DNA of 63,634 bases, filler included, from Folioceros fuciformis (lineage: Eukaryota), in assembly GCA_049999805.1 (NCBI GenBank). It is 9 parts of 9 records of this genome, joined end to end, with 100 filler letters (N's around TTAATTAATTAA, not from the genome) between each part and the next. Parts side by side here need not be neighbours in the genome. Positions count along the whole stretch, not along the records: positions 26,577 to 35,153 come from JBNGIO010006469.1; 8 more parts are not named here. The stretch is one strand, 5' to 3'. This document shows positions 1,949-53,833 of this stretch, in pieces (position 1 is the stretch's first letter; each line of letters begins with the position of its first letter). The position numbers and the translations under genes were made by a program. The notes beneath the pieces were generated by a model. It saw only the letters and a list, made by a program, of their open reading frames with translations, had not been told where the DNA came from and made no database searches.

Positions 1949-2309
1949 TGCTTAGGGTTTCGTTTCATATGTAGCTAGTGTGAATAGGGATATGGTTTTC
2001 ATTTTAGCTACTTGTCGCTTCGCTAGGGTTGTGTCTCTAGCTAAAGGTCATGTCCTTTCAACAGCTAGTTNNNNNNNNNNTAATTACTTAAATGTAATTG
2101 ATTTACACCTTCTTATTAATTTTGTCACAAACCTATCTTTCTCCTTGAACCCTTCCCCACCCAAGCTAGATGAGGTATCTACTGCAGATGCCATTTTACC
2201 CCTTTGGTATTTTTGGGTTAGCTACTCCCAAAATTACTAAGATTCGGTGATGGCTTTGCAAGGGTTAGAAGACTAAAGACTTCAAACATGTAATGCACAT
2301 GCAGCTCAG

Positions 2310-3053
2310 TTACAGTATGTTGACAGCATCAGGGAGTCTGTCAGCTACAGGTCTAGCTTCTGACTCTTGTTGTTGAATTCCGTTTCTGATTTTCTGATTT
2401 CTAATCTCCCACTTATTGTAAGCATATATAGAGCAGGATGGACAAGAATTAGGACTTCCAAACATATGTTTTTTACTTGTTTTCGTTGCATGCTTGCAGG
2501 CTACACCTCTGTGTACAGGGTTAGCAAGCAAAGATGGTTTTAACAAGGTAAGAAGCTTGAAATCCAAGTGACTTATCTGCTCTTGCAAATCTCTCAAGTC
2601 TACATTATTAGTAGATACCTTGTGCATGATACTGCTAAAGCGTGTGTCCACATGTTGCTGATGTGACTCAATCCTGTTCACTAACTGTGCAACACTGGCA
2701 GGTGGAGAGACATGCGTTGTTAGAAAACCTCTAGGGTTACCATTCCCATCAAAGGCTCTCTGAACGCGAACTTCTGGGAGATTGTTAGGATTGCGGGGTG
2801 GAAGGGCAATCACCAAGTGGCGCTGTTCAGGATAAATCACTTCAATCAAAGTATTGAAAGATTCCCTTACTTCAAGTGCAAGGACAGGCTGGTCTTGTAT
2901 TGTAGCAATCCATTCGGTCACATGTTGATGAAGCTAACCAGCAACTGCGTTCCTTGCAGCTTGTGCTCCTTGCCTCTTGCGGCGATTTTGAAGTTGTGGA
3001 ATCCGCTCAGCAGGGCGAGGCTGCCACTGGTACCCGACCAATTGATTGGCCAT
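2310..3053 (-). CDS. extra ORF between PBS and gag of copia A (basic N-terminus, coiled coil, Cys/His cluster), one in-frame TAG
   Basis: ATG at 3053 is in frame with the 203-aa track ORF, interrupted only by a TAG at 2934-2936. Confidence 0.6.
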
Positions 3054-3377: not shown

Positions 3378-3389
3378 GCTCTGATACCA
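3378..3389 (-). promoter_or_regulatory. primer-binding site, tRNA-iMet
   Basis: TGGTATCAGAGC next to the LTR end. Confidence 0.95.
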
Positions 3390-22465: not shown

Positions 22466-22560
22466 TGATGAAATAAGTCTAGATTTAGGGCACTATTCAT
22501 TAGGGCCTCTTAACTTTAATTATCTACCTAGGGTTATTTAGGTAGTTATTAGCTATAGTG

Positions 22561-22640
22561 GTTATAACCACTTACGGTTACAACCACTTACGGTTACAAC
22601 CACTTACGGCTACAACTACTTATGGTTACAACCACTTATA
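22561..22640 (+). repeat. 5 x 16-bp tandem repeat (GTTACAACCACTTACG) in LTR U3
   Basis: Read directly. Lies upstream of TATATAAA at ~22666. Confidence 0.92.
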
Positions 22641-22953
22641 GTTGTAACCGCCCAACTACCTAGCCTATATAAAGGCTTGTACTTTACTTCTTATATACAT
22701 TCAATTACATTCTAAGATTTGCATATAAGAGCAAGGCTAGATTTTCATCATGGTATCAGAGCATCTTGCTCTTCATTATGCAAGTGCAGCTTTAAGCATT
22801 TAAGGAGCGCATCTAGGAGACATCTTTTCCAATCTAGCACCTCGCTAGATGGATTGTGTCTCTTTTATAATTGCTGCTCTCTTATGTTTTCTTCTCATGC
22901 AAATATCTCTTTTCCCATAATGTTCATATGCACTAATTCTTCGTCTCCTCTTT

Positions 22954-23529
22954 ATGGATTTGATTTCTTTTAATAGGAGGAGGCCTAGAATTAGGAAAAG
23001 AAATTGCCCTGCAAGACAACAAGATCAAGTTAGGATTAAGAGCAATAGAAGTTCACAAATTATAGCAAGAGAGATAGATGAGATATCTTCTCGCATAGCT
23101 AACTTCATTGCATCTATTCTAATTTCTAAACCAGACCAAGGGAAGTTGATTAAGCTTGCTAGATGTGATTTGCTAGAAGTATTTAGCCCAATCCATGTTA
23201 AGGCCTTAGAATTAGCTATTCAACATATCCCTAATTTGAGAGCTGGTGCTAACGCTTCTAAATTCTTTTGTCTACAAGGCCAAAATATAGAAACTCACCA
23301 AATTCATGACCTAGATAGAGAATTATCTTCTCTAACAATTCAACATCTTGAATTCAAGAGAAAACTAACAAAACTTGGGGTAAGGGTGTCCAATCTCTCT
23401 AAATTCAAAGATGTGCAGGAGCTTTCTAGTAGGTCATCATCTCCTGATGCAGGTTACCGTGCAAGGGAGGAGTTTCGAGCTTGCAATAGAGAAGATGGAA
23501 AGCTGTACCGCCGAGGCTTAGTCCTCTAG
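22954..23529 (+). CDS. extra 191-aa ORF between PBS and gag of copia E
   Basis: Intact ATG ORF, Arg-rich N-terminus, heptad stretch IHDLDRELSSLTIQHLEFKRKLTKL. Confidence 0.6.
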   Translation: MDLISFNRRRPRIRKRNCPARQQDQVRIKSNRSSQIIAREIDEISSRIANFIASILISKPDQGKLIKLARCDLLEVFSPIHVKALELAIQHIPNLRAGANASKFFCLQGQNIETHQIHDLDRELSSLTIQHLEFKRKLTKLGVRVSNLSKFKDVQELSSRSSSPDAGYRAREEFRACNREDGKLYRRGLVL

Positions 23530-23539: not shown

Positions 23540-24880
23540 ATGGCTGGAGTATCTAATATTGAAGAAGAATTTTCAGCGTCACCAAATACACCCATGATGG
23601 ATCCTTCTGGGAGTTCTAATCATACCTTGATTAATCATTATGGTAACAGCTTCAAAGAGAAGGATAGGTTCAATGGAAAGAATTATTATGTTTGGGCTAT
23701 ACGGATGAAAGGAGCCTTGCGACAACGAGATCTCTGGGACATAGTCGAAGGAAGACTTCCCAGACCCACTGAAAGATTTGAAGTACACCTTCGAACGTCC
23801 TGGGACGTCAAGGACGAGAAGGCACAAGACCTTATCATCAGTGGACTTTCGGAGCAGATGGTGATACAAGTTGGTCATGCAAAGACCTCCCACGACATGT
23901 GGACTCACCTTGCTCAACTCTACTCCTCCATGGATGTTATGAGTATTGTTGCCGCCTCCCGTAATTTCCGCAACCTTCAAATGAAGGAGTCCGATTCCAT
24001 TGAACGCCATATTAGTAATTTCCGACTAGCAAGATCTCAACTTGAGGCTGCAAGTGGCATTCCTGTCCATGAGTTGGAAGCATATGTTATCCTTCTATCA
24101 TCTTTACCGCCGTCTTATAGAGCTTTTGTTACAACTCAAAATGCTGTTCTCCGTAATGCAAGACGTGAGGCAGATGAGAATCCACAAGAAGAAATTAAGC
24201 TCAGCATCGCCGAGCTCATAGGAGCATTGATGCAAGAGGAATCAAGTCGGCGACACTCCAGAACCAATAAGCAACAGGTGATGTTCACTGGAAGGGGTAA
24301 TGGAAGAGGACGAGGCAGAGGCCGAGGTTCCACTTCATATCGACCCCAGACTTCCAATGACAACTCTTGAAGACGAGAGACTTCTTCTTCAACACCTGCT
24401 AAAGGTACCAAGAAGAAAGGCATCATTTGTAATTGGTGCAGAATACCAAACCACCTGGAGAAGGACTGTTACAAGAAGAAAAATGGTGAGCCTAGAAAAG
24501 AGGCTGCGCCTGGAGCTCATATAGCTGTGAAGAAGACATCTTCCACAACACCTTCGGCTCTAACTGTATGTTTGACTTCATCAAAGTCATCAAATCCAAA
24601 CTGGTACTTGGATAGTGGAGCCACTGCACACATCTGTAATAATAGACGTCTGTATCAATCTTATAATTCTGTTACAGGACATCAGAGTGTCTTATTAGGT
24701 GATGATCATAACCTTCCTATTTCTGGTATAGGTTCGATAAAACTCAGATGTTCTTTTGGTCAAATCCTTGTTCTTTCCAATGTTCTTCATGTACCAGCCA
24801 TGTGTAAGAATTTAGTGTCAGCTACTTGTTTATGCATAGAACATAACATACAAGTCATTTTAGATGCAGATAGTTGTCTT
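23540..24880 (+). pseudogene. copia E gag-protease
   Basis: FKEKDRFNG gag motif, CNWCRIPNHLEKDC knuckle, TGA at 24368-24370, truncated after the protease. Confidence 0.9.
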
Positions 24881-25146
24881 CTGTGGAGGCAAAACCCCGG
24901 GCACTGATTGCCGACAGGTTCCACCTTTAGTGGCCACACTTATCCCACTGTCGTTGAGACATTGGGTTTCGTTCCCACGAAGGAGCGATGGGGTTCCTTG
25001 CTGCTGTGGATGGAGGGTCGGACTTGATCGACTCGATGATGGATTCGAGGGCTCCCCTCCAGCTCTGATCAGGCGTAGGACAGGCCTCGCTGTCCGGCGG
25101 TCAGCTGCACCTCTCTCGGTGCCCACAAACTCACTCCAGTCACTAC
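24880..25146. repeat. dispersed ~270-bp repeat, also at ~45678-45942
   Basis: Direct high similarity between the two loci. Confidence 0.85.
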
Positions 25147-26576: not shown

Positions 26577-27085
26577 CGCGAACCAAAGAATTCAGATTAA
26601 ATCAGCACTAGGCTACTCGAGGCTACATTTGTGATAGCTCGGATCTACATCTGGAGTCCATGCCTTATTTAGCCACTGAGTTGAGTTTTGGGGAAGAAAA
26701 CACCTGTCACCCCAGTCTTCGTGTCTAATCTGATTACTCCGAGGGCTGCTTCAACAGTCGTGGAGGAGGGGCCTACTTAACCCGCCCAAACCCTAAAGAC
26801 CATAAGAATGTGATTGGTCACAACCAACGTACCATCAAGATTGAGCTCCAAGAGCCCAAGACTCATAGCTTTCCCGAATGAAGCCAAGGCAAATGAATTT
26901 TCCAATCTCCCCATTCTCTTCCGTTTCTTGAAAAGGTAACCCCAAATACTTGTGAGGAGAGCGAGGTCAGACCCTTGTGATATGACTAATGCACTGAGGT
27001 AGCTCTCCCTCCATGTTGATGCATAAGATCTGAGTCTTCGCCAAGTTAACCTTGCACCCTAAGAGTTTACCAAAAAGTTCAACTT
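26577..27085 (-). pseudogene. L1-type LINE reverse transcriptase remnant, downstream part
   Basis: QVELFGKLLGCKVNLAKTQIL...KYLG, joins in frame with 34261 once copia B and one TSD copy are removed. Confidence 0.8.
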
Positions 27086-27318
27086 GGGAGTAACGAAAAG
27101 CGGATGCCCTAACTAGCCTGTTCCCCGGCGTCAAGTAGTGTTTAGGTCATAATATAAATATAAGTATACCCGAACGGTACTTTATCGAAACGTCAACCGT
27201 CAACCGCCATACCGGTTCACGGGACACGGCCTCATAAGCCCCTTACACACGAACACGATGTATCTTTAACCTTTATCTAAACCTTCCTATCTACGCTGTG
27301 TGCTACCGATCCTACGCT

Positions 27319-27498
27319 ATGGACTCTGCCAAGTCTCCACCGCGTGTGTGTAAAATCTGCAAGTCCAAGTGTTGCATCAAAAATCTTGCTCACGAGCACT
27401 TTAGAGCCGTAATTGTATCACTCAGGATTTCACTCACCCGATTTGGAAGTCTGGCAGACGCATTCTTGGCGGAAGCCGTCAATCATTACTACTCGTAG
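27319..27498 (+). CDS. small leader ORF-a of copia B (59 aa)
   Basis: MDSAKSPPRVCKICKSKCC...RAVIVSLRISLTRFGS, resembles the ORF at 35861-36022. Confidence 0.45.
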   Translation: MDSAKSPPRVCKICKSKCCIKNLAHEHFRAVIVSLRISLTRFGSLADAFLAEAVNHYYS

Positions 27499-27537
27499 TG
27501 TAAATGCGCTCCCTGCTAAGAGTTCGAATTAGTCCTG

Positions 27538-27720
27538 ATGGATCCCTACACTCGATTGAGTAGGCTGCAGCTTCTTGCACGTCTCGCACGTCCTGACCTG
27601 CCTTTTGCTTTGCACAGCGCAATTCAACACAATCAGTTCAATGTGTTACCTACTCAGAGTGCAATTAATTTACAGGGATCCAAGTCCGTAGCCGCGGCAG
27701 AAAAGAAGTTAGTTCAGTAG
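27538..27720 (+). CDS. small leader ORF-b of copia B (60 aa)
   Basis: ATG ORF between ORF-a and ORF-c. No recognisable domain. Confidence 0.3.
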   Translation: MDPYTRLSRLQLLARLARPDLPFALHSAIQHNQFNVLPTQSAINLQGSKSVAAAEKKLVQ

Positions 27721-27861
27721 CACCAGGTCATCTACACACATATCCCAGTGTCTTGCACACACTTGGATACAGGTGCAGATACCCTGGAGCCTCTGCACAC
27801 ACAGTCGTCAGTCTCTAATTTTGCACAAAGCATGTCAAAAACTAGGCTTTCTCTTTAAACA

Positions 27862-28563
27862 ATGCCTCGCAATAGCCGTTCTAAGCACACCTTCAATTCA
27901 CAAAGGCAATTAGCATCTCCTTTCAGCAACAGTGCAGAACAACAGTCGTTCTTCTCAAGCTTACCACAACAGACTACTCCTGGCCACACTCACCAAATAA
28001 GGTCCTCGTGCAACCTTTGTGGAAGAAGTGGTTACCAGCGCCCACCTGCTGGTTCAGCTGTAAGCACACCTGGATCGACGACTGTTCAAGCAGAAGTGTT
28101 CTCGAAGGTGATTCTTGATCGGCTTGCCGAGGAACGCCGTCACACGCACGCAACATTGTGCGACTTCAGGCGACTGCGTGAAACTCAAGTGGAGCACCTC
28201 CGCAGCAAGATTGACGACGTCAACTACAGATGTAGACATCTGTCAAAGGACCTGAACAAACTCTTCACACAGGTCGCGCACCTGGACAGAGTATCAAAGT
28301 CTCAAGAGACAACGGCAGTACCTGCCGAACCAGAAAGACTCACCTTCATCAACCTTCAGCAAATCTTGCCAAATTTCTCTTCGGATGTGCCAGAGAAATT
28401 ACCTGAAGGAAGAACCAAGGGTGAAGTCATATCTGAAGTTGCTGCACTCTTGACGCACATGTCAATCGAGGCAAAATCAAGGAAGATGGTATTTGAGTAT
28501 GTCGGATCATTGGGATCCGAGTCCAGCAGGAACACCACCTCGCAGGACTCCTGCCAGACCTGA
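27862..28563 (+). CDS. leader ORF-c of copia B (233 aa, CxxC + coiled coil)
   Basis: Intact ATG ORF upstream of gag, CNLC followed by a heptad region. Confidence 0.65.
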   Translation: MPRNSRSKHTFNSQRQLASPFSNSAEQQSFFSSLPQQTTPGHTHQIRSSCNLCGRSGYQRPPAGSAVSTPGSTTVQAEVFSKVILDRLAEERRHTHATLCDFRRLRETQVEHLRSKIDDVNYRCRHLSKDLNKLFTQVAHLDRVSKSQETTAVPAEPERLTFINLQQILPNFSSDVPEKLPEGRTKGEVISEVAALLTHMSIEAKSRKMVFEYVGSLGSESSRNTTSQDSCQT

Positions 28564-29038
28564 ATCATCGTCTTCAAGGACGAGACCTAGAGCGTCGCCT
28601 GCAAGGGTCAGACCTGAATCGTCGCCTCCAAGGTCGAGACCTGAAACATCGTCTGCAAGGATTGAATCTGAAGGGCTACGTCAACCGTTACTAGTCGAAG
28701 AGTCACCTGAAACGCCACAAGCACCCGTCCATCCATAGGACCCGTTTGGTGTCTTAGAATTAGAAGACTACATCTTCTCAGATTCTCCACAGACTCCTTC
28801 GTACACAGCAGACACACCAGCCTCAGCCTTGTTTGCTACTCAGCAAGACGAACAGCATCCAGGGTCTCCCCTTAGCAGTCCAGTGTCGTCACACAGGTCT
28901 TCCCCTAGCAGTCCAGCATCTTCACCCAGATCTTCTAGCAGGTCCTCAACCTCGTCAAGTTCCTTACATAGTGCTTCCTCTCTGTCACTTGGCCGTTTAT
29001 TTGACCTTAGTCAAACGCAATTCAGTCAGTATACCTTC

Positions 29039-32000
29039 ATGGGAACCAATCCTCCTGCAAATATCACTGTCAACAACTTTAAGTATGACTTTAAAGATAG
29101 AGATAGGTTCAACGGCCAACATTTCGATATCTGGATGATTAGAGTACGAACCATTCTCCAAGAGCAGGAACTCTGGGACCATGTTACAGGCGCAACTCCG
29201 ATGCCTGCAACACCTGCAGGAGGCGCAACGCCACAAAGTACTACAGACCAGCATGCCTGGAAACTTAAGGACCTTCGTGCACAAAATGTGATTCAGTCAG
29301 CACTGGACCTAAGCATGATGTCTCATGCTCGAGAGGCTACAAGTTCCAAGGCAATCTGGGACTCTCTCTGCCAAGTCCATCAAAAGAAGAGCGTGACGTC
29401 ACTGGTTCATGCCACACGCGACTTCTATAATCTGAGAATGCAGGATGGTGACACAGTTGAGAATCACGTCAGCCGGTTTCGGATGCTACGCACCAAACTT
29501 ATTACTGCTGGCACAACTGTGGACGAACTCCAAGCTGCAGTGGCTCTTCTCATGTCGCTCCCAGAGAAGTACAACAGTTTTGTAAGTACACAAAATCAGC
29601 ACATCACCACTGCCCAAGCAGCAGTGGCTGCAGGGACACCATCGACAATTACATTGTCAGATATCATTGGTGCTCTACTAAATGAGGAAGCTACTCACAT
29701 TCGGGGTCGAGGCTCCTCCTCTCACAATGCTGCACGAGCCATGTTTGCTTCTCAAGGTCGAGGACGCCGTACTCAAGGTGGCCCTCGCCCACATTACAAG
29801 CCCGGCGCCCCTCGAGCACCTTCCTGGCCTTCCTCGAAGTCAGGTACCTCAAAGAAGGGCCCGTGCACATGGTGTAGAATTCCTGGCCACTTAGAATCTG
29901 AATGCCGTAAGAAACAAAAGGGCGAACCAAAAAGAGAGGCTCCACCTTCAGCCCATGTATCCTCAAAGAAAAGCACGGGGGCCATACTCACTGTATGCAT
30001 GGTCTCTTCGTCACAAGACAGGCATGCCTGGTATCTAGATTTAGGTGCCACCACACATGTCTGTAATACACGCACAGCATTCACCATGTTTACACCTTCT
30101 CCTAAGGGGCAGTTCGTCCTTCTAGGTGATGACAGTGGGCTCTGCATTGAGGGCACGGGTACAGTGGTCCTCCATCCTATCCAAGGACAACAAATTACGT
30201 TGTTAGATGTTATTTATGTCCCACAGATGGCAAAGAATTTGGTGTCTCTTAGGCGTCTCTCACCTCCGCTGCTCACACTTGAGATGACCATAAAGGGCCT
30301 TGCACTGAGAGAAGCTGCTGCTCCACACAAATTGCTGGCTACCTGCACTCTTCATACTGATCTGTACAAGTTCAATTTGAAGAGCAACCCGGTGCAGCAT
30401 CTGAAGGCTTCCACAGCTAAGGCAGCAGTAGCCTCCTCGCCAAATGAAACACAACTATGGCACTGTCGACTAGGACATGTACATCTACAACGTCTTCAGT
30501 CCTTACCTGCCTCTTCCTTGTATCGGACACCTCTCCAGTTTAAGTCCGACAAATCACTGTTCTGCGAAGCCTGTATACAAGGGAAGCACCACAAGGCTCC
30601 TCATCCGAGTCAAGACTCTACCAGGGCCACTCACCTCCTTCAAGTTGTGCACACTGACCTTTGTGGTCCTATGTCAACACGTTCCCTTGGTGGTGCCCTG
30701 TATTTTATGCACCTGATTGACGACTAGAGTCGCTTCACTGTGACCTACTTCTTAAAGCATAAAAATGAAGCATTTTCTTGCTTCCTTCTGTACTTGGCGT
30801 ATGCTTAGCGTTTCACAGGTCAGAAACTCAAATGTCTAAGAAGTGACAACGGTGGTGAATTTACCTCCGGGGAGTTCAAGGAGTTCTGCTCACGGGAGGG
30901 CATCCTTCGGCAACTCACTGTTCCCTACGAACATGAGCAAAACCCCTTGCCTGAAAATAAGAATAAAGTCACTCAGGCTGCTGCAAAGTCCATGCTTTAT
31001 CTGGCTAGGCTTCCTTGCAGCTTTTGGGCCGAAGCAGTTGCAACAGCTGTTTATATCCAGAACAGGCTGCCCACTCGTGCCTTCAACGATGCCACCCCCT
31101 TTGAAAGATGGACTGGTGTTAAGCCTCGGGTGGATCATCTTCGGATATGGGGCTGCCCTGCGTATGTTCACACCCCTGATGAGATCAGGCGGAAAATGAA
31201 CTTTAAAGCTACGAAACATCTATTTATTGGCTACACTGATGGCATCAAGGGCTACAAGCTCTATGACCCATCACATCGCCGATTTTTACATGCAAGAAAC
31301 GTCATATTTGACGAACAATTTCTGTTGCAAGTTTCAGGAAAGCACAGGGACGTACCAGGCCTACAACGTCTAACGTCCTCTGAACAAGGTGCAACCGAAC
31401 TCTCAGCTCATGATGAACCTCTGGTTACCCCTCAGCATGCACCGGTGGTTCCAGTTCAACCTGCAGATGAGTTCCCAGACGACGAGCCTGACCTCACTGC
31501 AGACGACTCTCACTCCGAAGCTAGTGAACACTCGAATAATGACCAGCAGGAGACCTATGATGACATGGATGATGACACTCCACCATCCCCTCCTGCAGCC
31601 GAGGAAGAAGTTGAGGAACAATCTTCCAATCATGCTGAGGAACCAGTCGATGAGCCTCCAGCCCTCAGAAGGTCATCTAGAACCCACACAACTGATCCAA
31701 GTCAGTGGGTAAACAAGCCTTTAAGTTACGAATTAGACGAAGCTTACAGGCAGCAAAGCTCCAATCTCACATCGTGCGATATCTTACCTCACGAAAACAT
31801 CTCCCCCAGTACCTATGTTGCGCAAGCCTTGCTCGCAGCACAGGATCTTGGAGAGCCAGCCACCCTGAAGGAAGCTCTGTCCTCTCCCGAAGGCAAAAGC
31901 TGGCAAGCAGGCGTTGACTCGGAATACCAATCCCTCATTGACAACCAGACTTGGGAGCTGGTAGAACTCCCTCTTGGACGCAAGGCTCTCACAGGCAAAT

Positions 32001-33439
32001 GGGTGTTCAAGAAGAAACTTAACCCTGATGGTACTGTGGCCAGATACAAGGCAAGATATGTGGTGCATGGATACAAGCAAGTCGAAGGACTTGATTTCCA
32101 CGAGACCTTCTCACCTGTTGTACGGACGTCCTCTGTGAGGATGCTCTTTGCACTGGCTGCATAATGTAAGCTTGACATCCAGCAGATGGACGTCAAGACC
32201 GCCTTTCTACATGGTACAATAGATGGTACAATAGATGAAGAGATGTATATCACACAGCCAGAAGGTTACGTCAGTAAAAAGGAACCTCAAAAGGTATGCA
32301 AGCTCAAGAAAAGCCTGTACGGCCTGAAACAAGCACCGAGAGTGTGGTATAAGAAAATTCATGCCTATCTGATTCAGTCGGGGTTCACCCAGAGTGACGC
32401 TGACACGAATGTGTACATCCTTAGACAAGGGCAAACATTTGCAATTCTAGCATTATATGTTGATGATGCACTAATATTTGCCAACTCCCCTGTTATGATG
32501 AAGAGGGTCAAGTCCATCCTTACTGCTGAGTTCTCAATGACGGATTTGGGCCAACTTACCTTTTTCCTAGGCATACAAATTTGCATCAGTCCAGATAAGG
32601 GAACCATATTCTGCCATCAGGCCCATTACATACGGGAAATGCTAGATAGATTTAACATGGTGGACTGCAAGCCCGCCATCACTCCCATGGCGGTGGGAGA
32701 AAAGTTTTCTACTGAGCAAAGCCCAAAGTCAGATGCTGAGAAGCAAGAAATGCAGAAGAAGCCTTACAGTATGCTGACGGGATGCCTAATATGGATCAAT
32801 GGATGGACCAGACCTGATGTGTCCCCTGCTACTCGAATTTTCTCAAGGTTTCTTGCAAATCCTGGAAATGCCCACTGGACGGGAGTTAAAAGAGTCCTAC
32901 GTTATCTCAAGGGCACACAACATCTTGGAATCAGATACAAGTCACAGGGGAAGTTTCCTCTACTTATCTGTTACTCCGATTCTGACTGGGCCAGCGACAA
33001 GGAGTCCAGGCAATCTGTTACAGCCAACTGCACAATTCTGTCTGGAGGAGCGGTTAGCTGGACTTCAAAGAAACAGACGGTGGTGGCACTGTCCAGCACT
33101 GAGGCTGAATACACAGCCGCAACCTCAGCTGCTCAGGAGACAGTTTATAATAGACGCTTTATGGCGTCTGTGGGTTTTCCATAGCCTGGAGCCACGACCA
33201 TCTACTGCGATAATCAATCTGCTATAGCTTTATCAAGAAATCCAGTTCATCACTCCAGAACAAGACACATTGCAATCAAACAGCACTACATCAGAGAAAC
33301 GGTGGAATCAGGTGAGATAGATTTCATCTACGGGCCCACAGACCAGAATTTGGCTGACCTGTTCACGAAACCACTGCCTAAGGAGCGTCACACCACTCAT
33401 TGCGAAGGCTTGGGTCTTGTTGTCAAGACAGACCCTTGA
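29039..33439 (+). pseudogene. copia B gag-pol (GAG-PR-INT-RT-RH), single frame with ~4 stops
   Basis: CTWCRIPGHLESEC, WYLDLGAT, HTDLCGP, SDNGGEF, MDVKTAFL, YVDD, SDSDWA, TEAEY. Confidence 0.95.
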
Positions 33440-33770
33440 CCTGCGCACAACTGCACATGCACGCACTCACTCAAAGAAAAGGTTAGCACTTGTCACAATC
33501 AGTGGGGGCGGATGGGCGCACAACAGGGCAGCTATGTTTGCTTTCCTCTGTGTGCCACAGGCGTTACAAGTATGCGCTTGCCAACTCCGCCGCCACTTCA
33601 GCGCATCTCCAAAACAGGGCATACCTAAAGACAAGGTTACCTTCCTCATCACAACAAGCAGAATTCAAGATCATGGCAAGACCTGGACATGGCGACAGTT
33701 TGCGGAAACTCTCCTCATCAGGAGTCAATCCCTTGAGCTGTCGTAACTAAGCATGCAACAATCTCATCCT

Positions 33771-33941: not shown

Positions 33942-34260
33942 AGTTGCAATTCGTTCTGTAGGCGAAGGGTATACGGAAGCTGAGAACTGGCGTGGATTGC
34001 GGCGCAAGCGAAGTTCACGATGGCAGGAATACAGTCTAAGTGGGGGTAACGAATAGCAGATGCCCTAACTAGCCTGTTCCCCGGCGTCAAGTAGTGTTTA
34101 GGTCATAATATAAATATAAGTATACCCGAACGGTACTTTATCGAAACATCAACTGTCAACCGCCATACCGGTTCACGGGACACGGCCTCATAGGCCCCTC
34201 ACACACGAACACGATGTATCTTTAACCTTTATCTAAACCTTCCTCTCTACGCTGTGGGAG

Positions 34261-35253: not shown

Positions 35254-35685
35254 TGGTTCAGGGACAAGCATTAAGCCGAAGGTTGGATCACAGCGCGAGA
35301 CATCTGGAATCGGTTCAGGATGATTAGCTATGTTATTGACTCTTACAAGTGTTGTGAGAGGGTCAGATTGTATGCTGATTTGAGATAGTTTTTTATTGAG
35401 TATGCCAATTTGTTTCTGAAGGGCAATCTGGTCTTTCTTATAGCTAATGCGTGCAAGGTTTGCTTGGTCTCTTAGGATACCCACACTAAACTTTAGGTTC
35501 CTAATGGTGATGTGATTGGGTGTGAATTGTGGCTGTGGCGATGGCTGCTAGCGGTTTGAGAAGGGGCGCTGGCCGGTGGAACAATGATGCTGAATGAAAC
35601 AATTTGGACAGGATTGCTGGAAAATAAATGGTTGAGGAGGTATATCACATCCTCTGCAGCATCTATGCTTGTTGTTCCGTGTCAT
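35254..35685 (-). CDS. leader ORF-c of copia C (CxxC...CxxC + coiled coil), continues at 41517-41452
   Basis: MTRNNKHRCCRGC...CPNC..HHC, one TAG at 35548-35550, then LQKQIGILNKKLSQI. Confidence 0.55.
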
Positions 35686-35696
35686 GGTGTAACCGC

Positions 35697-35849: not shown

Positions 35850-35860
35850 GCTGCTGAAGT

Positions 35861-36022: not shown

Positions 36023-36373
36023 GGTGCTCTGATACCATAAAGTGGTATTCAGCAGCGATGCACCATCAACCGGGACCTGTACGAGAGCATGAGAGAGCGA
36101 GAGCAAGAAGGCACGAAAGATAACTTCCATAAGTGATCAAGAGACTATAAAAGAGTTTTTGTGTGTAACCGTTTTGTGACCTAAATATAAACCTTGTTCT
36201 ATAAACTTAAGTTGAATATCCGTTGAGTTAGAGTCTGGAAACCCTAACTGAATCCCATTACTCCCCCTCAGACCTAACTCAAAAAGGAATTATCCTGTTT
36301 AGAGCGGCCCGAGGCGTAGACGCTATCTCCACGAACAGCACTGTGAGACTGAACTGCTTAGCTCGTGAGCTCC

Positions 36374-36914: not shown

Positions 36915-39900
36915 TTACTGTTGGTTGAGATAAGTCCTTGTACTTCTTAAGCCTAGGGAGCTTCTGTGTTGCTCATGTGTAGCTTTTGGGAGGCCCTTAG
37001 TCAGCAGGTCTGCAACGTTGTCTGCTGTATGAACATATTGCAATTTGATAACTCCTGTTTCCACTGCTTGGTGGATAAAATGAAATTGGATCTCGATATG
37101 CTTAGATCGAGCATGCAGGATGGGATTTGCAGTGAGGGCAATAGCTGATTGGTTATCGCATTGCATCAGTGTTGCATCTGGTTGCTGCCAATGTATGCCA
37201 TCAAGAAATTGCCTAACCCACATGATCTCGCATGCAGCTAGGGACAGTGCTCCGTATTCAGCCTCGGTTGAGGAGAGGCTAACTGTGGTCAATTTCTTCG
37301 ACTGCCAACTGATGGCTAAACCACAGAGGATCAAACAGTATGCAGCTATGGACTTACGTGAATCTACGTCACCTGCCCAATCCGCATCCAAGTAGGAGGT
37401 AAGGGTTGAACTTCCTGCTGCAGTATATTGAATAAAATAGTCCTAAGTGCCCTTGAGATAGCGTAGGACTCTCTTAACTGCGGTCCAGTGCTTCCTGCCA
37501 GGGTTAGCGAGGAAACGTGACACGACACCTATAGCTTGAGAGATGTCAGGGCACGTCCAACTAGCTAAGTATAACAAGCTACCTACAGCTTCTCTATAGG
37601 GAACTTGAGCCATTTCAGCACAATCTGCAGGGGTAGTTGGACAGTCTTCTATAGATAGCCTATCTCCAGCAACTATGGGTGTTGTGACTAGATGCAGATC
37701 TGTAAGGTTAAATTTAAGCAGCAGTTGTTTGATGAAGTGAGACTGATGGATTGTGACGCAGGTTCTATCTAGACTAAAATTGAATTGGATGCCGAGGGCA
37801 AATTTCATGGGACCCACATCTGTCATGTCCCACTCTTGGGACAGTTCATGCTTCATGTCCTTAAGAATTTGATCATCACTTGCGAAAAGGAAATTGTCGT
37901 CAACGTAAAGGGCAATGATGCATAACTGCGTTGTCCTCTTCAAGACATATACACTACAGTCCACCATAAGAGGTAAGAATCCAATTTGTCGCAGTTTGGT
38001 TGTTGCCCTTGTGTTCCAGATGCGAGCAGATTGCTTCAGGCCGTATATTGACTTCAGTAATTTGCATACCTTTGTAGGATCACGAATGTAGCCCTCGGGC
38101 TGATGCATAAATATAACCTCATCAAGAGGACCATTCAAGAAGGCAGTCTTGACGTCCATCTGATGGATGAGAAGCTTGTGCTTCACTGCATAGCATAAGA
38201 GTATCCTCATGGAAGTTGGTTTCACAACTGGACTGAAAGTTTCGTTGTAATCTAGACCATGCACCTGAGTGTAGCCTCGGGCTACCATACGTGCCTTAAA
38301 TCGAGCAACAGTGCCATCAGGGTGAAGTTTCAATTTGAACACCCATTTCGAAGTGATGCCACGCCTACCAGGAGGTAAGGTAACAAGCTCCCATGTTTTG
38401 TTGTCAATTAGGCTTGCATATTCTGAGTCAATAGCTTTCTTCCATTCTGCCTTGTAAGGCCCTGACAAAGCTTCCTTATATGTGAGAGGTGTTTCTGGAG
38501 GGTCAAGGATGGTTGCTGCTGCAGCATGTGCTAGGGCTGCTAAGTTTGTATGAGGTAAGGTCTGAACTAAGGTATCACCAGGTTCATAAGGTTTCTCTAA
38601 CCACTCATGTCTAGGGCAATGAGTTCTGGTTGATCTTCGTAGAGAAGGTATCTCCTGTTCTATTGCAGGAAACTGTTCGGGTTCGATGGGATATATAATA
38701 GCATCTCATGTATCTGGATCGTGTGCAGGAGGTTCTGCAGCTTGGAAATCATCCAGGCGCTGTATAGGGTCAGGTTCGACTTGTGCTATAGGAGGAGGTG
38801 GCTGAACAGAAGCTGGAGGTAGTTGCTATTGTGGAATTACAGGGGCAATGGCAAATTCAGGTAAGTCTGAAGGAAAAACAGAGATGTCTGTGCCTACCTC
38901 GTCATCTGTAGGGGTGTGTCCATGTATAGATTGTGCTGAGAGAGGCTTGTGTCTTGTGACAGATTCGTGATGAGAGGAAACTATAAAGCTCTCGTTGAAG
39001 CTCACACTTCTAGCCAAAGTAAGCTGTCTTGTTTGTGGATTATAGAGTTTGTAGCCTTTCGCTTGTTCTGAATAACCCACAAATACATGTTTAGTAGCCT
39101 TGTTGTCCATCTTACCCCTTTTGTCTGCTGGGATGTAGGCGTACGCTGCTGCACCAAAAATTCTGAGGTGTTCGATTCTTGGTTTGTGACCACACCATCG
39201 CTCGAAGGGAGTGTAACTGAATGAAGGCTTAATGGGAAGCCTGTTGTGTACATAATTCACGGCTGCTACAGCCTCAGCCCAATACCCTCGGGTAAGCCCA
39301 GCTGAGGAAAGGGTGGCTCGACAGCGTTCTTGCAACGTGCGATTGTACCTCTCTGCATAACTGTTCTGAGCTGGGTGGTATGGAACTGTAAGCTGGTGAA
39401 GTATACCTTTTTGTCTGCAGCATGACTGAAATTCATTGCTAAGGTATTCCAAAGCGTTATCACTTCTAAGTTTCTTCATTGTACGTCCAGTTTGGGTTTC
39501 TGCCATTTGTACATAGTCGACAAACTTTTCATAGGTTTGGTGACGGTGATGCAGAAAATACAGGCAGCAGTAGTGACTCCATTTGTCAAGGAACAGCAAG
39601 AAATATGTGGCGCCACCAAAGGAGGTAGTCGACATTGGCCCACAGATGTCTGAATGCACGACATCCAACAAACCTGCTGCTTTGGTGGGCTCTGGATCAT
39701 TGTATGGCTTCTGTGCCATTTTGCCAATCTGGCAATCTTCACAAAAAAGGTGATCCTGTACTTTGAAAGAGATTGGGTCTTTGTATAGTTTTGGGTTGCT
39801 GATTATCTGACGAATGTACGTGATGCTCGGGTGACACAATCTGCTGTGCCAAAGAAAGCTCTTGTCAACATCTGATTTTGCATCAACTACTAAACCACGA

Positions 39901-41266
39901 GGTTGTGCTACAGTAGTATCGAATTGATACAAGTCATTGTAAGTGATTCCTTCCCCAAGTATTTGAGAATGGTTGTTTGCTGATGTCACCACACAGCCTG
40001 CTGGTGAAAAACATATACGCAGATCATGGTCTGCTACAAGTTTCCTCACTGATAACAAGTTCTTCGTCATGCTAGGTACATGGAGAACGCCTAAGAGCAG
40101 AATTTCCTGTCCCCCATTGAGAGGAAACAGCACATCTCCATAGCCAGCAATAGCCAAACCACTATCATCGCCAAGTAAGACGAACTAGCTGGTTGGCGCC
40201 AACTTGTAAGTGACAAACTTGTCCTTCAATAGGCAGATGTGATGTGTGGCTTCTGAATCCAGGAACCACATGTTAGTAACAGCTTGTGTGAGGGATAAAC
40301 ATACCGCGAGAATGGTTGGCGGCTTGGCAGCTATCTGTGTGCCATTGGTCTGTCTGCGAGTCACTACATGTGACTCTGCACCGGGAGGTGCATCACGGCG
40401 AGGCTCTCCGGCTCGCTTCTTCCGGCATTCTGATTCGAAATGCCCTGGAATTTTGCACCAATGACATGTGCCTTTTTTCTTCAGACCAGGATTGAAGGAG
40501 GAGGGTGCTGTATATGGTCGTCCTCGTCCACGACCTCGCCCTCGACTACGTCCTCTGAAGGTGTAGAGGACTTGAGAGGTATATTGTTGACCTCGTCCAG
40601 TAGCAATTCTGCTGGACTCTTCTTCCAAAAGCGCACCAACCACTTGTGATAAGGTGACTTTCGCTCCTGCTTGATGTGTGAAGGATGTTTGCGTAGTTAC
40701 AAAAGCTCTGTAGCTTTGGGGCAGTGATGTAAGGAGGACAGTCACTGCTTGCTTCTCCGACAAGACCTCTCCACAGGATGATAGCTTGGCGCGCAAGGTC
40801 CCGAACCTGTGCTATCATTATCTTTCATTCGGAGACCATAAAGCTGTCTTGTAGCATTAATGAGAGACATGCCATCCTTGGCTGCAAACATGTCCTTAAA
40901 CAATGTCCAAATCTCCGCAGCAGTTTTCTGCCCTAAGGTATGTTGGATCATGTTTCTGTCAAGAGCAGCAATTAGGATGCAGCGTGCTCTTTTATCTTGC
41001 TTTGTCCATACTTCGATCTCTGCTGAAGTGCCTTTAGGTGTGGCTAATGCTGGATTTGTTATCTTGCCAAGCACTATGTCCAGAAGATCGTGTTCATCGA
41101 AGATGGACTCCATGCGAAGTTCCCAAATTGGGTAATCGGTTCCATTGAACCTGTCTTTGTCCTTTATGTCAACCTTAAAAGTGTTGTTAGTATTGTTTAT
41201 TACAGTGTTTGTGGCAGTGCCACCACCTCCTCCATTGCTACTTCCACCACCTCCACTACCAGACAT
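36915..41266 (-). pseudogene. copia C gag-pol with stops and one frameshift near 40800
   Basis: IKDKDRFNG, CHWCKIPGHFESEC, WFLDSEAT, HSDICGP, RSDNA, MDVKTAFL, YVDD, DADWAG. Confidence 0.95.
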
Positions 41267-41664
41267 GATTGGTTTGGGTGGCGTGTGTCTACGAGGTTCT
41301 CTAGGCAACCTGTGTGGAGGAGACCACATATACTAATGTACTAATCCCATGTGTGCGGGGTGGAAATTGGGGGCGTGATTTGCATAACTAGGAAATTCTG
41401 CTGAACTCCTCAACTTTCCTTCCCGGACTCTACCTAACAGTCTTAGGGTTGCTACAGAATTAATGGTTCAGGGTCCTGACCAAACATTCTAGCTATACAC
41501 CCTAAAATCTCTTCTGTTGGTTCAGGGACAAGCATTAAGCCGAAGGTTGGATCACAGCGCGAGANNNNNNNNNNNNNNNNNNNNNNNNNNNNNNNNNNNN
41601 NNNNNNNNTTAATTAATTAANNNNNNNNNNNNNNNNNNNNNNNNNNNNNNNNNNNNNNNNNNNN

Positions 41665-51325: not shown

Positions 51326-51450
51326 NNNNNNNNNNNNNNNNNNNNNNNNNNNNNNNNNNNNNNNNNNNNTTAATTAATTAANNNNNNNNNNNNNNNNNNN
51401 NNNNNNNNNNNNNNNNNNNNNNNNNGACGGTCCCAGCCGAGATTAACGCC

Positions 51451-51936
51451 TTGGCATATTCTCTTGTGGGCAGGACGGGGTTTCACAATCTGAATTGGTC
51501 CAGAGACAGAGAGCGTGCCGAACTGCTTCGGCCACTCTACCAACGAGATCACCAAATGAGGGATTACCTGTCTCGGGATCGACTCTTTAGAGATCAGAGG
51601 AAGGATAGGCGACAGAGGCAAGCTCGTGCAGCTAACACATCTGCCGCCCTGGGCTATACCTGCAGAGCGTCAAGAGCGGTGCGCCCTGAGGACCATACAC
51701 CCGCTTCCAGTGGAGACGCCCTTCGAGATTTCCACACCGACGTTGCTTCCAGTCGATTCAACGCTGCTCTTAAGGAAATTTGTATTACCATCGAATCCCT
51801 CCACACGAGAATTCTCGTCAATAATCTGCAAATTCTAGCAAGCTTTGACGCCATCAACGAGAAATTGACAACTAAGATCAAGGAATTCACTGATCACCTG
51901 CATAGATTGGAGATTGTTGCTCCCAACATCCAGTAG
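51451..51936 (+). CDS. extra ORF upstream of gag of copia F (probably 5'-truncated)
   Basis: Arg-rich N-terminal half and C-terminal heptads INEKLTTKIKEFTDHLHRL, located before gag at 52478. Confidence 0.5.
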   Translation: MAYSLVGRTGFHNLNWSRDRERAELLRPLYQRDHQMRDYLSRDRLFRDQRKDRRQRQARAANTSAALGYTCRASRAVRPEDHTPASSGDALRDFHTDVASSRFNAALKEICITIESLHTRILVNNLQILASFDAINEKLTTKIKEFTDHLHRLEIVAPNIQ

Positions 51937-52477: not shown

Positions 52478-53833
52478 ATGGGCACTAATATTCCACCACC
52501 GCCTCCTCCTCCTCCACCTCAGTTTTGGCACAGGTCTGCACCTGTCCCTACCTTCACTTCGGACATGAAGGAGAAAGATCGTTTTAATGGCACCAAGTAC
52601 CCGGTATGGAAGGTGCGCATGCGATCAGCCCTTGAAGCCCGAGGTGTGTGGGGAGTTGTGGATCAGTCTGTTCCTGAACCGGACCTCAACAGCACGCCTT
52701 CACCATCTCCTCTTGCTGTGGAGCGTTGGCTGTCTCTCAACTCTATCGCCCTTGCTTTTATTATAAATGGCCTTGATGAAGACCTTGTACCTACAGTGGA
52801 ATTCCATACACGCGCACATCAGGTTTGGGATCAGCTTGCTACTACATATCAAGTTAAAAATCTGATGTCTCTCTGCGCTGTAAGACAGGAATTTTACACG
52901 TTGAAGATGAGGGAGGGGGAGAAAATGGCCGCTCATATCACCAAGTTTCGTCAGCTCAGATCTCAACTCTTGAGTATGGGTACGAAAATGGATGAATTGG
53001 ACGCGGCAGCTCACCTCCTCACAACGTTGCCACCTTCGTACCAAGGCTTCATCACTACACAGAATACTCCATACTTGACTGCCTCAGCTGGCCGAACTTC
53101 AACCTACACAGTCGACATTCTTGTGGGCGCTCTGTTTCAGGAAGAACAAGCCAGGAGCCACTCATCTGGAGGTTCTCGTCTCAAGGGAGATAAGATCCTG
53201 TCTGCAAGACACACACCAAACAGGAACAAGAGTAAATCTCATAACAATCAGAAGTCTGACTCCAGCCCTTCTAACCCACCCAAAAGGGCAGGCACATGTA
53301 ATTGGTGTGGGATTGCCGGGCACTGGTCCCGTGAATGTAAAAAGAAGAAGGCTGGCGAGCCTCAGCGAACTTCTAAGAATTTGGCTAGTGTCGTTAAGGA
53401 AAAATCCAGTGATACCAAAAGCGTAGTTAAGATACTTACAGTCTGCTTGATTAGCTCTTGCCAAGATACAGAGAGCTGGTACCAGGATTCAGGTGCCACA
53501 GCTCATATCTGTCGGAACGAGAGTCAGTTCACCTCATTGACCCTATGTTGTGAGAACGATAAGGTTTTCCTTGGAGATGAATAGTTGGACAGCAGCCTGC
53601 AAGTCAAAGGACGAGGCATAGTTACTTTCAGATTGAAGGATGGTTCAGATCTCATTCTGGAACGCGTTTTGTACGTACCAGCCATGGCGAAGAATCTATT
53701 GTCCATGAGTCAGCTTCTGAAGCTGAGGACTATAGAGATGAGGGCCACTGGTGACACGTGCACCTTCTACAGGAAAATGACTCCCGACATTTGCATTTTC
53801 AAGGGTCTCCTTGATAATGACTTGTATTGCCTT
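52478..53833 (+). pseudogene. copia F gag-protease, one in-frame TAG, cut by the contig end
   Basis: MKEKDRFNG, CNWCGIAGHWSREC, WYQDSGAT, TAG at 53582-53584. Confidence 0.92.

What the first reader, a model, noticed from the sequence alone, without database searches (positions are those of the whole stretch)
27319..28563. A 'complex' Ty1/copia lineage carrying a cassette of accessory ORFs between PBS and gag
Seen: five divergent copies of one lineage (shared KEKDRFNG-type gag start, CxWC...H....C knuckle followed by KK..GEP) have 0.8-1.7 kb before gag, containing sense ORFs. B has three in series (27319-27498, 27538-27720, 27862-28563) and C has three (36022-35861, 35849-35697, 35685 onward). 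A (3053-2310), E (22954-23529) and F (51451-51936) each have one large ORF. The large ORFs share a basic N-terminus and a coiled coil, and three have CxxC clusters. Known: canonical copia has only gag-pol, Sireviruses add a 3' env-like ORF, and 5' extra ORFs are typical of gypsy Ogre/Tat. Inference: a fast-evolving accessory gene set (anti-silencing, targeting or RNA handling). The unrelated copia D in the same window lacks it.
Basis: partly seen in the sequence, partly recalled or inferred. Interest (0 to 1): 0.82.

Follow-up and report, generated by a model that had tools for sequence, protein, structure and literature searches.

The report
Copia retrotransposons with extra upstream gene
A group of old, diverged copia-type jumping genes in this plant-like genome carries one extra, very fast-changing reading frame just in front of the usual capsid gene, which is unusual for this superfamily but not a whole cassette of new genes.

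Summary
The sequence features are real; the "cassette" reading is only partly supported. Five copies of one Ty1/copia lineage have gag only 31-39% identical. Each has one long sense ORF ("ORF0") between the primer-binding site and gag.

- Sizes: B 233 codons, E 191, A 247 with one in-frame stop, G/C 165 with one in-frame stop, F at least 169 (cut by a gap).
- Chance: these ORFs are longer than shuffles give (0/2000, 0/2000, 4/2000 for A, E, B).
- Start codons: the ATG lies 1-13 codons after the upstream stop in 4 of 4 testable copies.
- Homology: it is weak but frame-specific. E-G is reached by 0/2000 shuffles, and the ORF0/ORF0 frame scores best of 9 frame pairs in 4 of 4 pairs tested.
- Structure: B ORF0 has a confident 78-residue helix with heptad periodicity. 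A, E and F have Arg-rich N-termini.
- Databases: no Pfam family or database relative was found, but the lineage's gag is also nearly absent from those databases.
- Small ORFs: those in B and "C" are not conserved and lie in a structured leader.
- "C" is the leader of the element whose gag starts at 41266 (circularly collapsed contig).

Best reading: one conserved, rapidly evolving 5' accessory gene, probably an RNA-binding, self-associating protein. Expression and function are untested.

The parts
27085..27300 (+). Element B, 5' LTR (about 211-216 bp; exact ends ambiguous by a few bases)
   Evidence: Direct repeat 27085-27300 / 34041-34256, 96% identical. Flanks share GGGAG as a 5-bp target duplication. 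The two halves of the interrupted flanking ORF join in frame.
27301..27861 (+). Element B, structured leader with two small ORFs (27319-27498, 59 codons; 27538-27720, 60 codons)
   Evidence: RNA fold z-score -3.44; 0 of 100 shuffles fold as well. Two ATG ORFs of at least 55 codons occur in 2.6% of 3000 shuffles. No similarity to G's small ORFs. No Pfam hit. The 12-mer primer-binding motif of A, E and G is absent here.
27862..28563 (+). Element B, ORF0 (233 codons plus stop): disordered N-terminus, long amphipathic helix, short C-terminal helices
   Evidence: Longest sense ORF, reached by 4/2000 shuffles. The ATG is 1 codon after the upstream stop. AlphaFold2 helix 73-150 has block pLDDT of 92-97 for residues 81-140. 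Heptad moment 1.72 against 0.98 in shuffles, 0/500 reach it. No Pfam hit and 0 hits among 1.84 billion representatives.
28564..29038 (+). Element B, spacer between ORF0 and the conserved gag start. It has no ATG, is Ser/Pro/Arg-rich, holds 27/54-nt and 33-nt tandem repeats, and is open in the gag frame from 28454 except for one stop at 28736-28738.
   Evidence: 0 ATG against 5.7 expected, P 0.002. Tandem repeats at 28555-28661 and 28863-28935, with periods that are multiples of 3. Frames.
29039..33439 (+). Element B, gag-pol in one frame with four in-frame stops (ending at 30727, 30808, 32164, 33184)
   Evidence: ORF list. Pfam Retrotran_gag_2, Pol_BBD and gag_pre-integrs. The gag start MGTN is shared with F.
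34041..34256 (+). Element B, 3' LTR, preceded by a purine-rich tract
22751..22762 (+). Element E, primer-binding 12-mer directly after the LTR end
   Evidence: Exact match, one of 5 in the window against 0.34 expected. Sequence read.
22954..23529 (+). Element E, ORF0 (191 codons plus stop). Its stop lies 10 nt before the gag ATG at 23540.
   Evidence: 0/2000 shuffles reach the 202-codon open frame. Junction read. Homology to G ORF0: score 54 against 29 +/- 5, 0/2000 shuffles. AlphaFold2 confidence is low (mean pLDDT 38), mostly helices.
23540..24907 (+). Element E, gag and start of pol (truncated copy)
3378..3389 (-). Element A, primer-binding 12-mer after the 5' LTR
2310..3053 (-). Element A, ORF0 (247 codons with one in-frame stop at 2936-2934), with an Arg-rich N-terminus
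   Evidence: Translation. 207-codon open part reached by 0/2000 shuffles. Similarity to B ORF0, P 0.01. No Pfam hit. No database hit for the 207-residue part.
734..2194 (-). Element A, gag (ATG 2194; a 10-N gap at 2071-2080) and protease start
36026..36037 (-).
35254..35685 (-). Element G, ORF0 first part (ATG 35685; in-frame stop 35550-35548). It continues across the circular contig junction.
   Evidence: Identical 47-nt contig ends. Stitched reading.
41455..41517 (-). Element G, ORF0 last part (stop ending at 41455). The gag ATG lies 185 nt further on, at 41266.
36915..41266 (-). Element G, gag-pol (several breaks)
51427..51936 (+). Element F, ORF0 (at least 169 codons; 5' end lost in the gap), with an Arg-rich stretch
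   Evidence: The F leader has 4 ATG against 14.2 expected, P 0.0005.
52478..53584 (+). Element F, gag from its MGTN start

Best explanation
SHOWN
This Ty1/copia lineage carries one extra sense-strand gene, ORF0 (165-247 codons). It starts 0.2-0.56 kb after the primer-binding site and ends 10-540 nt before the conserved gag start. It is present in all five leaders that can be read. It has stayed open, or nearly open, while gag diverged to 31-39% identity. It retains weak similarity that is specific to its own reading frame.

INFERRED
- ORF0 encodes a fast-evolving accessory protein with three parts: an Arg-rich or disordered N-terminus, a long helix that is a coiled coil at least in B, and a variable C-terminus.
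- The protein most likely binds the element's own RNA and self-associates. That would make it a chaperone, packaging or RNA-handling helper, working like LINE-1 ORF1p or the caulimovirus virion-associated protein without being related to either.
- ORF0 would be the first long cistron of the genomic RNA. Gag-pol would then be reached by termination-reinitiation, leaky scanning or shunting, or from a spliced RNA.
- The small ORFs upstream of ORF0 are incidental upstream ORFs in a structured leader, not genes.
For: - ORF length beyond chance in A, E and B: 0/2000, 0/2000 and 4/2000 shuffles reach it. Antisense frames are short.
- The ATG lies 1-13 codons after the upstream in-frame stop in 4 of 4 copies with a 5' end. 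The product of the per-copy chances is about 1e-4.
- Ten ORF0 pairs gave shuffle P values of 0.001, 0.01, 0.017, 0.042, 0.13, 0.24, 0.36, 0.46, 0.49 and 0.83. Thirty control pairs had a minimum P of 0.04.
- In the 4 best pairs, the ORF0/ORF0 frame scores highest of all 9 frame combinations, 4 of 4 times.
- B ORF0 has an AlphaFold2 helix at residues 73-150 with pLDDT above 90 over about 60 residues. Its heptad periodicity is reached by 0/500 shuffles.
- Arg-rich N-terminal patches occur in A, E and F.
- In E the ORF0 stop is 10 nt before the gag ATG.
- B and F leaders are depleted of sense ATG: 11 against 23.6 expected (P 0.001) and 4 against 14.2 (P 0.0005). Gag-pol is not depleted.
- The B leader, including ORF0, is multi-copy in contigs of two organisms of one study. 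One contig of the second organism covers 28124-28754 at about 82% identity.
- Among the 12 of 100 indels shown, the only pair inside ORF0 (28373 and 28378) is net zero.
- ORF0s do not lie in tandem repeats, apart from B's last 8 nt.
Against: - No relative was found. There is no Pfam family for A, B, E, F or the G part. B gave 0 hits among 1.84 billion representatives. E and A gave 0 hits in the word-indexed search. The ESM Atlas gave no usable hit.
- These negatives are weak, because B's gag-protease found only 1 protein at 25% identity.
- phmmer among 784 window ORFs gives E-G only E 0.6, and nothing for the other pairs. BLASTP found no significant cross-copy leader hit. Homology therefore rests on shuffle statistics and frame controls.
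- Six of the 10 ORF0 pairs are not significant.
- E ORF0 folds with low confidence, mean pLDDT 38.
- Heptad periodicity is not significant in A, E or G.
- A and G have in-frame stops.
- Five to seven ATGs precede the ORF0 start in B and E, which argues against simple scanning to ORF0.
- ATG depletion is absent in A, E and G. In B's spacer it is partly explained by tandem repeats.
- There are no expression data.
- The codon-usage test was uninformative.
Confidence: 0.55

Rival explanations
1. ORF0 is not a separate gene. It is a detached or extended N-terminal part of Gag, made as an ORF0-Gag fusion by a +1 frameshift, or formerly in frame and since separated.
For: - The gag frame is +1 relative to ORF0 in A, B, E and F, 4 of 5 copies.
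- In B the gag frame is open from 28454, overlapping the ORF0 end, with a single stop at 28736-28738.
- That stretch holds tandem repeats whose periods (27, 54, 33 nt) are multiples of 3, as coding repeats often are.
- In E, ORF0 abuts gag.
Against: - G is in frame +2.
- In E the overlap that would allow a shift is only 8 nt.
- In F the gag frame is closed upstream of 52376, and another frame bridges the gap.
- Gag starts are conserved: MGTN in B and F, and short N-termini of about 40 residues before DRFNG in E and G.
- A's frame is uncertain because of the N gap at 2071-2080.
Confidence: 0.15
2. The leader is non-coding. The long ORFs are by-products of constraints on a structured RNA leader (packaging, dimerisation, primer binding) or of composition, and no protein is made.
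For: - The first 561 nt of B's leader fold better than 100 of 100 shuffles.
- No protein relatives or families were found.
- For E-G the matched off-frames also show marginal similarity (P 0.025 each), so DNA-level homology exists.
- There are many upstream ATGs.
Against: - Shuffles keep composition yet do not reach the ORF lengths.
- Only the sense strand and one frame per copy are open.
- The ORF0 frame scores best in 4 of 4 pairs.
- ATGs sit at the start of the open frames.
- B has a confident amphipathic 78-residue helix.
Confidence: 0.15
3. One reading: there is a cassette of three accessory genes (two small ORFs plus the large one) between the primer-binding site and gag.
For: - B and G both have two ORFs of 50-60 codons before ORF0.
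- In both, the first ATG follows the primer-binding region within a few bases.
- Two such ORFs occur in only 2.6% of shuffles in B.
Against: - There is no similarity between B's and G's small ORFs, 4 of 4 comparisons with P 0.29-0.54.
- A and E have only ORFs of up to 29 codons there.
- There is no Pfam hit.
- The region is a strongly folding RNA.
Confidence: 0.07
4. Each sub-lineage independently captured unrelated host or foreign sequence at the same place. The REXdb authors raise this for heterogeneous extra ORFs.
For: ORF0 proteins are mostly unalignable: 6 of 10 pairs are not significant. The REXdb main text reports extra ORFs falling into many unrelated groups (PMC6317226, passages read).
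Against: - The position, orientation and size are the same in 5 of 5 leaders.
- Similarity is frame-specific in 4 pairs that link A-B-E-G-F.
- No host-like relative was found in any search.
Confidence: 0.05

Closest known systems
Extra ORFs of plant LTR retrotransposons, class eORF-5'F of the REXdb survey (Neumann et al. 2019, PMC6317226; review by Vicient and Casacuberta 2020, PMC7264820)
   Same: It is a forward-strand ORF between the 5' LTR and the polyprotein, with no known domain. It is highly divergent between elements, as those authors describe for extra ORFs in general (passages read).
   Different: - That survey counted only ORFs of at least 250 codons; these are 165-247.
- Its main text names a lineage-typical extra ORF in Ty1/copia only for SIRE, and that one lies 3' of pol.
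- 5' ORFs are described there as typical of Ty3/gypsy Ogre, Tat and Athila.
- Here the ORF is shared by deeply diverged copia copies.
- The supplements, which may list 5' ORFs per copia clade, could not be seen.
Sirevirus/SIRE env-like ORF (ICTV Pseudoviridae profile, PMC8515867)
   Same: It is a third ORF in a Ty1/copia element that is heterogeneous in sequence.
   Different: The SIRE ORF lies downstream of pol. Here the extra ORF is upstream of gag, and the 0.6 kb between B's pol and its 3' LTR holds no large ORF.
LINE-1 ORF1p (recalled; not fetched)
   Same: It works-like only. ORF1p is an upstream cistron encoding a coiled-coil, nucleic-acid-binding helper of the element's own RNA, and the downstream ORF is translated unconventionally.
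   Different: There is no sequence or fold relation, and no RRM or C-terminal domain was detected. It belongs to a different class of element.
Caulimovirus virion-associated protein and the polycistronic pregenomic RNA with a structured, upstream-ORF-rich leader (recalled; not fetched)
   Same: It works-like only. A small coiled-coil and basic protein gene lies directly before the capsid gene, the ORFs are tightly abutting, and a long structured leader carries small ORFs.
   Different: No Pfam match to caulimovirus families. No transactivator gene is present. This is an LTR element with integrase.

Membership tests
Ty1/copia (Pseudoviridae) | Integrase lies before reverse transcriptase in pol | tested here: met
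   In copy H the order is Pol_BBD, gag_pre-integrs, rve, SH3_retrovirus, RVT_2. B shows the same N-terminal order.
Ty1/copia (Pseudoviridae) | Copia-type Gag (Retrotran_gag_2/UBN2) with a zinc knuckle | tested here: met
   PF14223 at E 2e-31 in B. The knuckle is present in A, E, B, F and G.
Ty1/copia (Pseudoviridae) | [quoted passage not shown] | tested here: met
   - B's LTRs are 96% identical and its flanks share GGGAG.
- The same 12-mer follows the LTR in A, E and G.
- That this 12-mer matches the tRNA-Met 3' end is recalled, not tested.
- B itself lacks the 12-mer.
REXdb eORF-5'F | Forward ORF upstream of the polyprotein, never part of the polyprotein in other elements | tested here: met
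   Sense ORF before gag in 5 of 5 leaders, in a frame other than gag's.
REXdb eORF-5'F | At least 250 codons | tested here: not met
   165-247 codons, and two of the five have an in-frame stop.
REXdb eORF-5'F | Not caused by tandem repeats | tested here: met
   No TRF array overlaps any ORF0, except the last 8 nt of B's.
REXdb clade (Lyco, Bryco, Gymco, Osser, Ale, Ivana and others) | Position of RT, RH and INT in the reference phylogeny | not testable with these tools
   No REXdb or TEsorter library is on hand. The only pointer is that the full 12-mer after the LTR in A, E and G speaks against the half-tRNA primer type that the survey reports for Osser and Bryco. This rests on recall of the tRNA sequence.
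Sirevirus/SIRE | Env-like ORF between pol and the 3' LTR | tested here: not met
   B has 0.6 kb there, and its longest open frame (141 codons, 33321-33746) mostly overlaps the pol end.
LINE-1 ORF1p-like or caulimovirus VAP-like proteins | Family domains (RRM/CTD; caulimovirus DNA-binding domain) | tested here: not met
   No Pfam hit at E up to 1 for these families. Foldseek against the PDB found nothing at E up to 0.001.

The most novel reading that the evidence does not exclude
This is a 'complex' copia lineage. ORF0 would encode an Arg-rich, oligomerising RNA-binding protein that the element needs in cis or in trans for export, translation control or packaging of its unspliced RNA. Gag-pol would be expressed from the same RNA by reinitiation or shunting through an ATG-poor, structured leader. 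That would be a retrotransposon counterpart of the accessory-gene and polycistronic strategies of complex retroviruses and plant pararetroviruses, maintained over the long divergence of the lineage.
Probability: 0.15. Interest if true: 0.7.

Novelty: new variant of a known kind. Interest (0 to 1): 0.45.

Why it matters
Ty1/copia elements are regarded as structurally uniform: gag-pol, plus a 3' env-like ORF in SIRE.

- A 5' gene kept by deeply diverged copia copies would add a lineage-defining feature for classification.
- It would give a tractable example of a fast-evolving retrotransposon accessory protein.
- It raises the question of how gag is translated behind a 165-247-codon upstream cistron in a plant.
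- Survey cut-offs of 250 codons may systematically miss such genes.

Tried and rejected
- Whole genome: none is held, so no family-wide copy collection and no dN/dS.
- Earlier notes of this scan: none by place, sequence or words.
- Codon-usage log-odds test: uninformative. Held-out gag-pol controls did not separate frames, and some of my training pieces were out of frame.
- BLASTP among 84 leader ORFs and phmmer among 784 window ORFs: no significant cross-copy ORF0 hit.
- Databases: Pfam, 1.84 billion representatives with B ORF0, word-indexed searches with E and A ORF0, ESM Atlas with B ORF0. All returned nothing.
- Metagenome scans with B ORF0 and with a B+E gag alignment: no relative. A five-sequence gag alignment was too divergent to search with.
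- Foldseek of the B ORF0 model against the PDB: no match at E up to 0.001.
- Homodimer prediction of B ORF0 residues 65-225: 'no answer'.
- Sequencing runs: no RNA holder was listed. The one run guessed to be RNA laid a single 41-nt piece.
- Variants: only 40 of 2203 substitutions and 12 of 100 indels were shown, so codon-position statistics were not possible.
- Small ORFs of B against those of G: no similarity.
- The Arg/Cys-rich ORF after a fifth primer-binding 12-mer (53960): not significantly like any ORF0. The best of 5 comparisons had P 0.049.
- Matching B's post-LTR sequence elsewhere in the window: only itself.
- No tRNA genes in the window.
- Literature searches for a copia 5' ORF found the general class but no described copia lineage. 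Two searches failed on term syntax.
Full report
SETTING

The window is a scaffold of short contigs joined by N runs, mostly pairs of 44 N. It is rich in retroelements. It also holds plant-type genes: a Dirigent domain at 55938-56552 and a C2 domain at 60765-61337. No whole genome is held, and this scan has no earlier notes on it.

THE LINEAGE

- The gag motif DRFNG occurs in E, B, F and G. The knuckle CxWCxxxGHxxxxC followed by KK..GEP/VP occurs in A, E, B, F and G.
- Pfam calls B's gag Retrotran_gag_2. Copy H shows integrase before RVT_2, the copia order.
- Gag identity among A, B, E, F and G is 31-39% in 10 of 10 pairs. The other copia, D, is at 21-32%. These are therefore old, separate sub-lineages, not recent copies.
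- Further fragments of the lineage are H (51373->47843; 5' end in a gap) and I (gag 55115->54597).

ELEMENT B

- B is complete at 27085-34256. Its LTRs are about 215 bp and 96% identical.
- It sits inside another ORF on the minus strand. The two halves of that ORF join in frame across the insertion, and both flanks share GGGAG.
- Gag-pol is one frame from 29039 to 33439 with four in-frame stops.
- At least one of these stops lies where nearly all other laid contigs differ from this copy. The window copy is therefore a decayed member of an abundant family.

WHAT 'C' IS

- Contig 35254-41564 begins and ends with the same 47 bases.
- It is therefore a circularly collapsed assembly of one element with one LTR.
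- They form the leader of the element whose gag ATG is at 41266.
- The third ORF runs from 35685 across the junction to 41455. It has 165 codons with one in-frame stop.

PRIMER-BINDING SITES AND DISTANCES

- The same 12-mer follows the LTR in A (3389-3378), E (22751-22762) and G. It also occurs in D (45202-45191) and at 53960. That is 5 exact matches against 0.34 expected.
- B has a different sequence there.
- The distance from LTR end or primer site to the gag ATG is 0.79 kb in E, 1.03 kb in G, 1.18 kb in A and 1.74 kb in B.
- In D it is 0.55 kb, with no sense ORF above 75 codons.

IS THE LARGE ORF MORE THAN CHANCE?

- The longest sense ORF of each leader was compared with 2000 composition-preserving shuffles: A 207 codons (0 reach it), E 202 (0), B 234 (4), F 169 (75; truncated by a gap). 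Antisense frames stay at or below 113 codons in these four.
- A's frame continues upstream to an ATG at 3053 through one stop, giving 247 codons.
- In 4 of 4 copies with a readable 5' end, the ATG lies 1-13 codons after the upstream in-frame stop. The product of the per-copy chances is about 1e-4.
- None of the ORF0s lies in a tandem repeat, apart from the last 8 nt of B's.

ARE THE ORF0s RELATED?

Standard searches say no. BLASTP among 84 leader ORFs gave no significant cross-copy leader match. phmmer among 784 window ORFs gave E-G at E 0.6 and nothing else.

Smith-Waterman scores against shuffles give a graded picture:

| Pair | Result |
|---|---|
| E-G | score 54 against 29 +/- 5; 0 of 2000 shuffles reach it; Gumbel P about 6e-4 |
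| A-B | P 0.01 |
| F-G | P 0.017 |
| B-E | P 0.042 |
| other six pairs | P 0.13-0.83 |

- Thirty control pairs against unrelated window ORFs had a minimum P of 0.04.
- The decisive control translated the same DNA in all 9 frame combinations. The ORF0/ORF0 combination scored highest in 4 of 4 pairs.
- For E-G the matched off-frames were marginal (P 0.025 each), as expected for collinear homologous DNA.
- The shared stretch lies in the central helical part. A, B and E share an IE[ST]H-type start and an HL[DE]-type end, with identical spacing in A and B. Downstream, E, G, F and B share a [VI]xN[LI] motif.
- I conclude that the ORF0s descend from one ancestral coding sequence that evolves much faster than gag.

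WHAT THE PROTEIN LOOKS LIKE

- B ORF0 folded alone gives a disordered first 70 residues. A single helix follows at 73-150, with block pLDDT of 92-97 for residues 81-140, and then three short helices.
- Its heptad hydrophobic moment is 1.72 against 0.98 in shuffles; 0 of 500 reach it.
- F is marginal (P 0.07). A, E and G are not significant.
- One of the 8 control ORFs also scored, but it lies in a 21-nt tandem repeat.
- E ORF0 folds with low confidence, mostly as helices.
- A, E and F have Arg-rich N-terminal patches; B and G are weaker.
- CxxC pairs occur in A (C-terminal), B (N-terminal) and G (N-terminal, two pairs). These are not equivalent positions.
- No Pfam family, solved-structure fold or Atlas look-alike was found. 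No database relative was found either.
- These blanks weigh little. The lineage's own gag-protease found just one protein, at 25% identity. Two metagenome scans found nothing.

THE SMALL ORFs

- B has two, of 59 and 60 codons. G has two, of 53 and 50 codons.
- In B, two such ORFs occur in 2.6% of shuffles.
- The B and G small ORFs show no similarity: 4 of 4 comparisons have P 0.29-0.54.
- A and E have only ORFs of up to 29 codons there.
- In B they lie in 561 nt that fold better than 100 of 100 shuffles (z -3.4).
- I read them as upstream ORFs of a structured leader, not as genes.

HOW GAG MIGHT BE REACHED (INFERENCE)

- The distance from the ORF0 stop to the conserved gag ATG is 10 nt in E, about 115 in A, 185 in G, 476 in B and about 540 in F.
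- Gag is in frame +1 relative to ORF0 in A, B, E and F, but +2 in G.
- The leaders of B and F are depleted of sense ATG: 11 against 23.6 expected (P 0.001), and 4 against 14.2 (P 0.0005).
- Those of A, E and G are not depleted, and gag-pol is ATG-rich.
- B's 475-nt spacer has no ATG (P 0.002). However, 179 nt of it are tandem repeats with periods of 27, 54 and 33 nt.
- That spacer is open in the gag frame from 28454, with an ATG at 28499 and one stop at 28736-28738. An N-terminally extended Gag that overlaps the ORF0 end is therefore an alternative for B.
- These facts fit reinitiation, leaky scanning or shunting. None of them proves any mechanism.

OTHER COPIES ELSEWHERE

- Contigs of two organisms from one study cover B's leader, including ORF0, at high summed depth: 60-280 in the leader against 200-750 in gag-pol in X1.
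- One contig of the second organism spans 28124-28754 at about 82% identity.
- Among the 12 indels shown, of 100 in total, the pair inside ORF0 is net zero. Those in pol are net multiples of 3. Those at 27754, 28800 and 33475 are not.
- This is suggestive, but far too few were shown to count.
- No run on record as RNA held the stretch.

LITERATURE

- The REXdb survey defines forward 5' extra ORFs as a class. It required at least 250 codons and found extra ORFs in 582 copia elements, falling into 45 unrelated groups. In its main text it names only the SIRE 3' ORF as typical of a copia lineage (PMC6317226; passages read).
- The review of additional ORFs treats mostly 3' ORFs (PMC7264820; part 1 of 3 read).
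- The ICTV profile lists one to three ORFs (gag, pol, env) for the family (PMC8515867; passages read).
- Five searches turned up no description of a copia lineage with a conserved 5' ORF.
- Supplements were closed, and they may hold per-clade lists that bear on this.

VERDICT

The interpretation needs trimming: there is one conserved, fast-evolving 5' ORF in an old copia lineage, not a three-gene cassette. This is a new variant of a known kind. Function and expression remain open.

Noticed in passing
35254-35300 and 41518-41564; N runs listed: The contig between two gaps starts and ends with the same 47 bases, so a repeated element was assembled as a circle. Most gaps are pairs of 44 N separated by 12 bases. 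Element order across gaps in this scaffold should not be trusted.
   Followed up: partly
26777-27084 and 34257-34418 (minus strand): B interrupts an ORF whose halves join in frame across the insertion. It reads like the YxDD region of a non-LTR reverse transcriptase. That motif is recalled; the two pieces of 59-61 residues gave no Pfam hit.
   Followed up: partly
18892-22107 (+): A Ty3/gypsy-type element lies here. It has Retrotrans_gag/Ty3_capsid, zinc knuckles and a weak aspartyl-protease match. Element E's LTR begins shortly after it, around 22475.
   Followed up: partly
53960-54178 (+): A fifth exact copy of the primer-binding 12-mer is followed by an open frame with an Arg/Cys-rich stretch. 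It is not significantly like any ORF0 (best of 5 comparisons P 0.049). It may be a further, broken leader.
   Followed up: partly
54597-55115 (minus strand): Another gag fragment of the same lineage (copy I, with a DRFND variant). The 630 nt upstream, up to the gap, hold no sense ORF above 56 codons.
   Followed up: no
9196-13887 (+): A 1563-codon open frame with no Pfam family. It has a long charged helical-looking first half and arrays of 42/84-nt and 126-nt tandem repeats.
   Followed up: no
55935-56555 (+) and 59946-60572 (-): Two closely similar Dirigent-domain genes in inverted orientation. The first was confirmed by Pfam; the second was judged by eye.
   Followed up: partly
7166-7807: A 159-bp tandem repeat of about 3.6-4 copies.
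   Followed up: no
22544-22665: A 16-bp tandem repeat (about 5 copies) inside element E's LTR, upstream of a TATA-like motif.
   Followed up: no
24878-25143 and 45677-45942: A 266-bp direct repeat, 87% identical. One copy lies at the point where element E breaks off.
   Followed up: no
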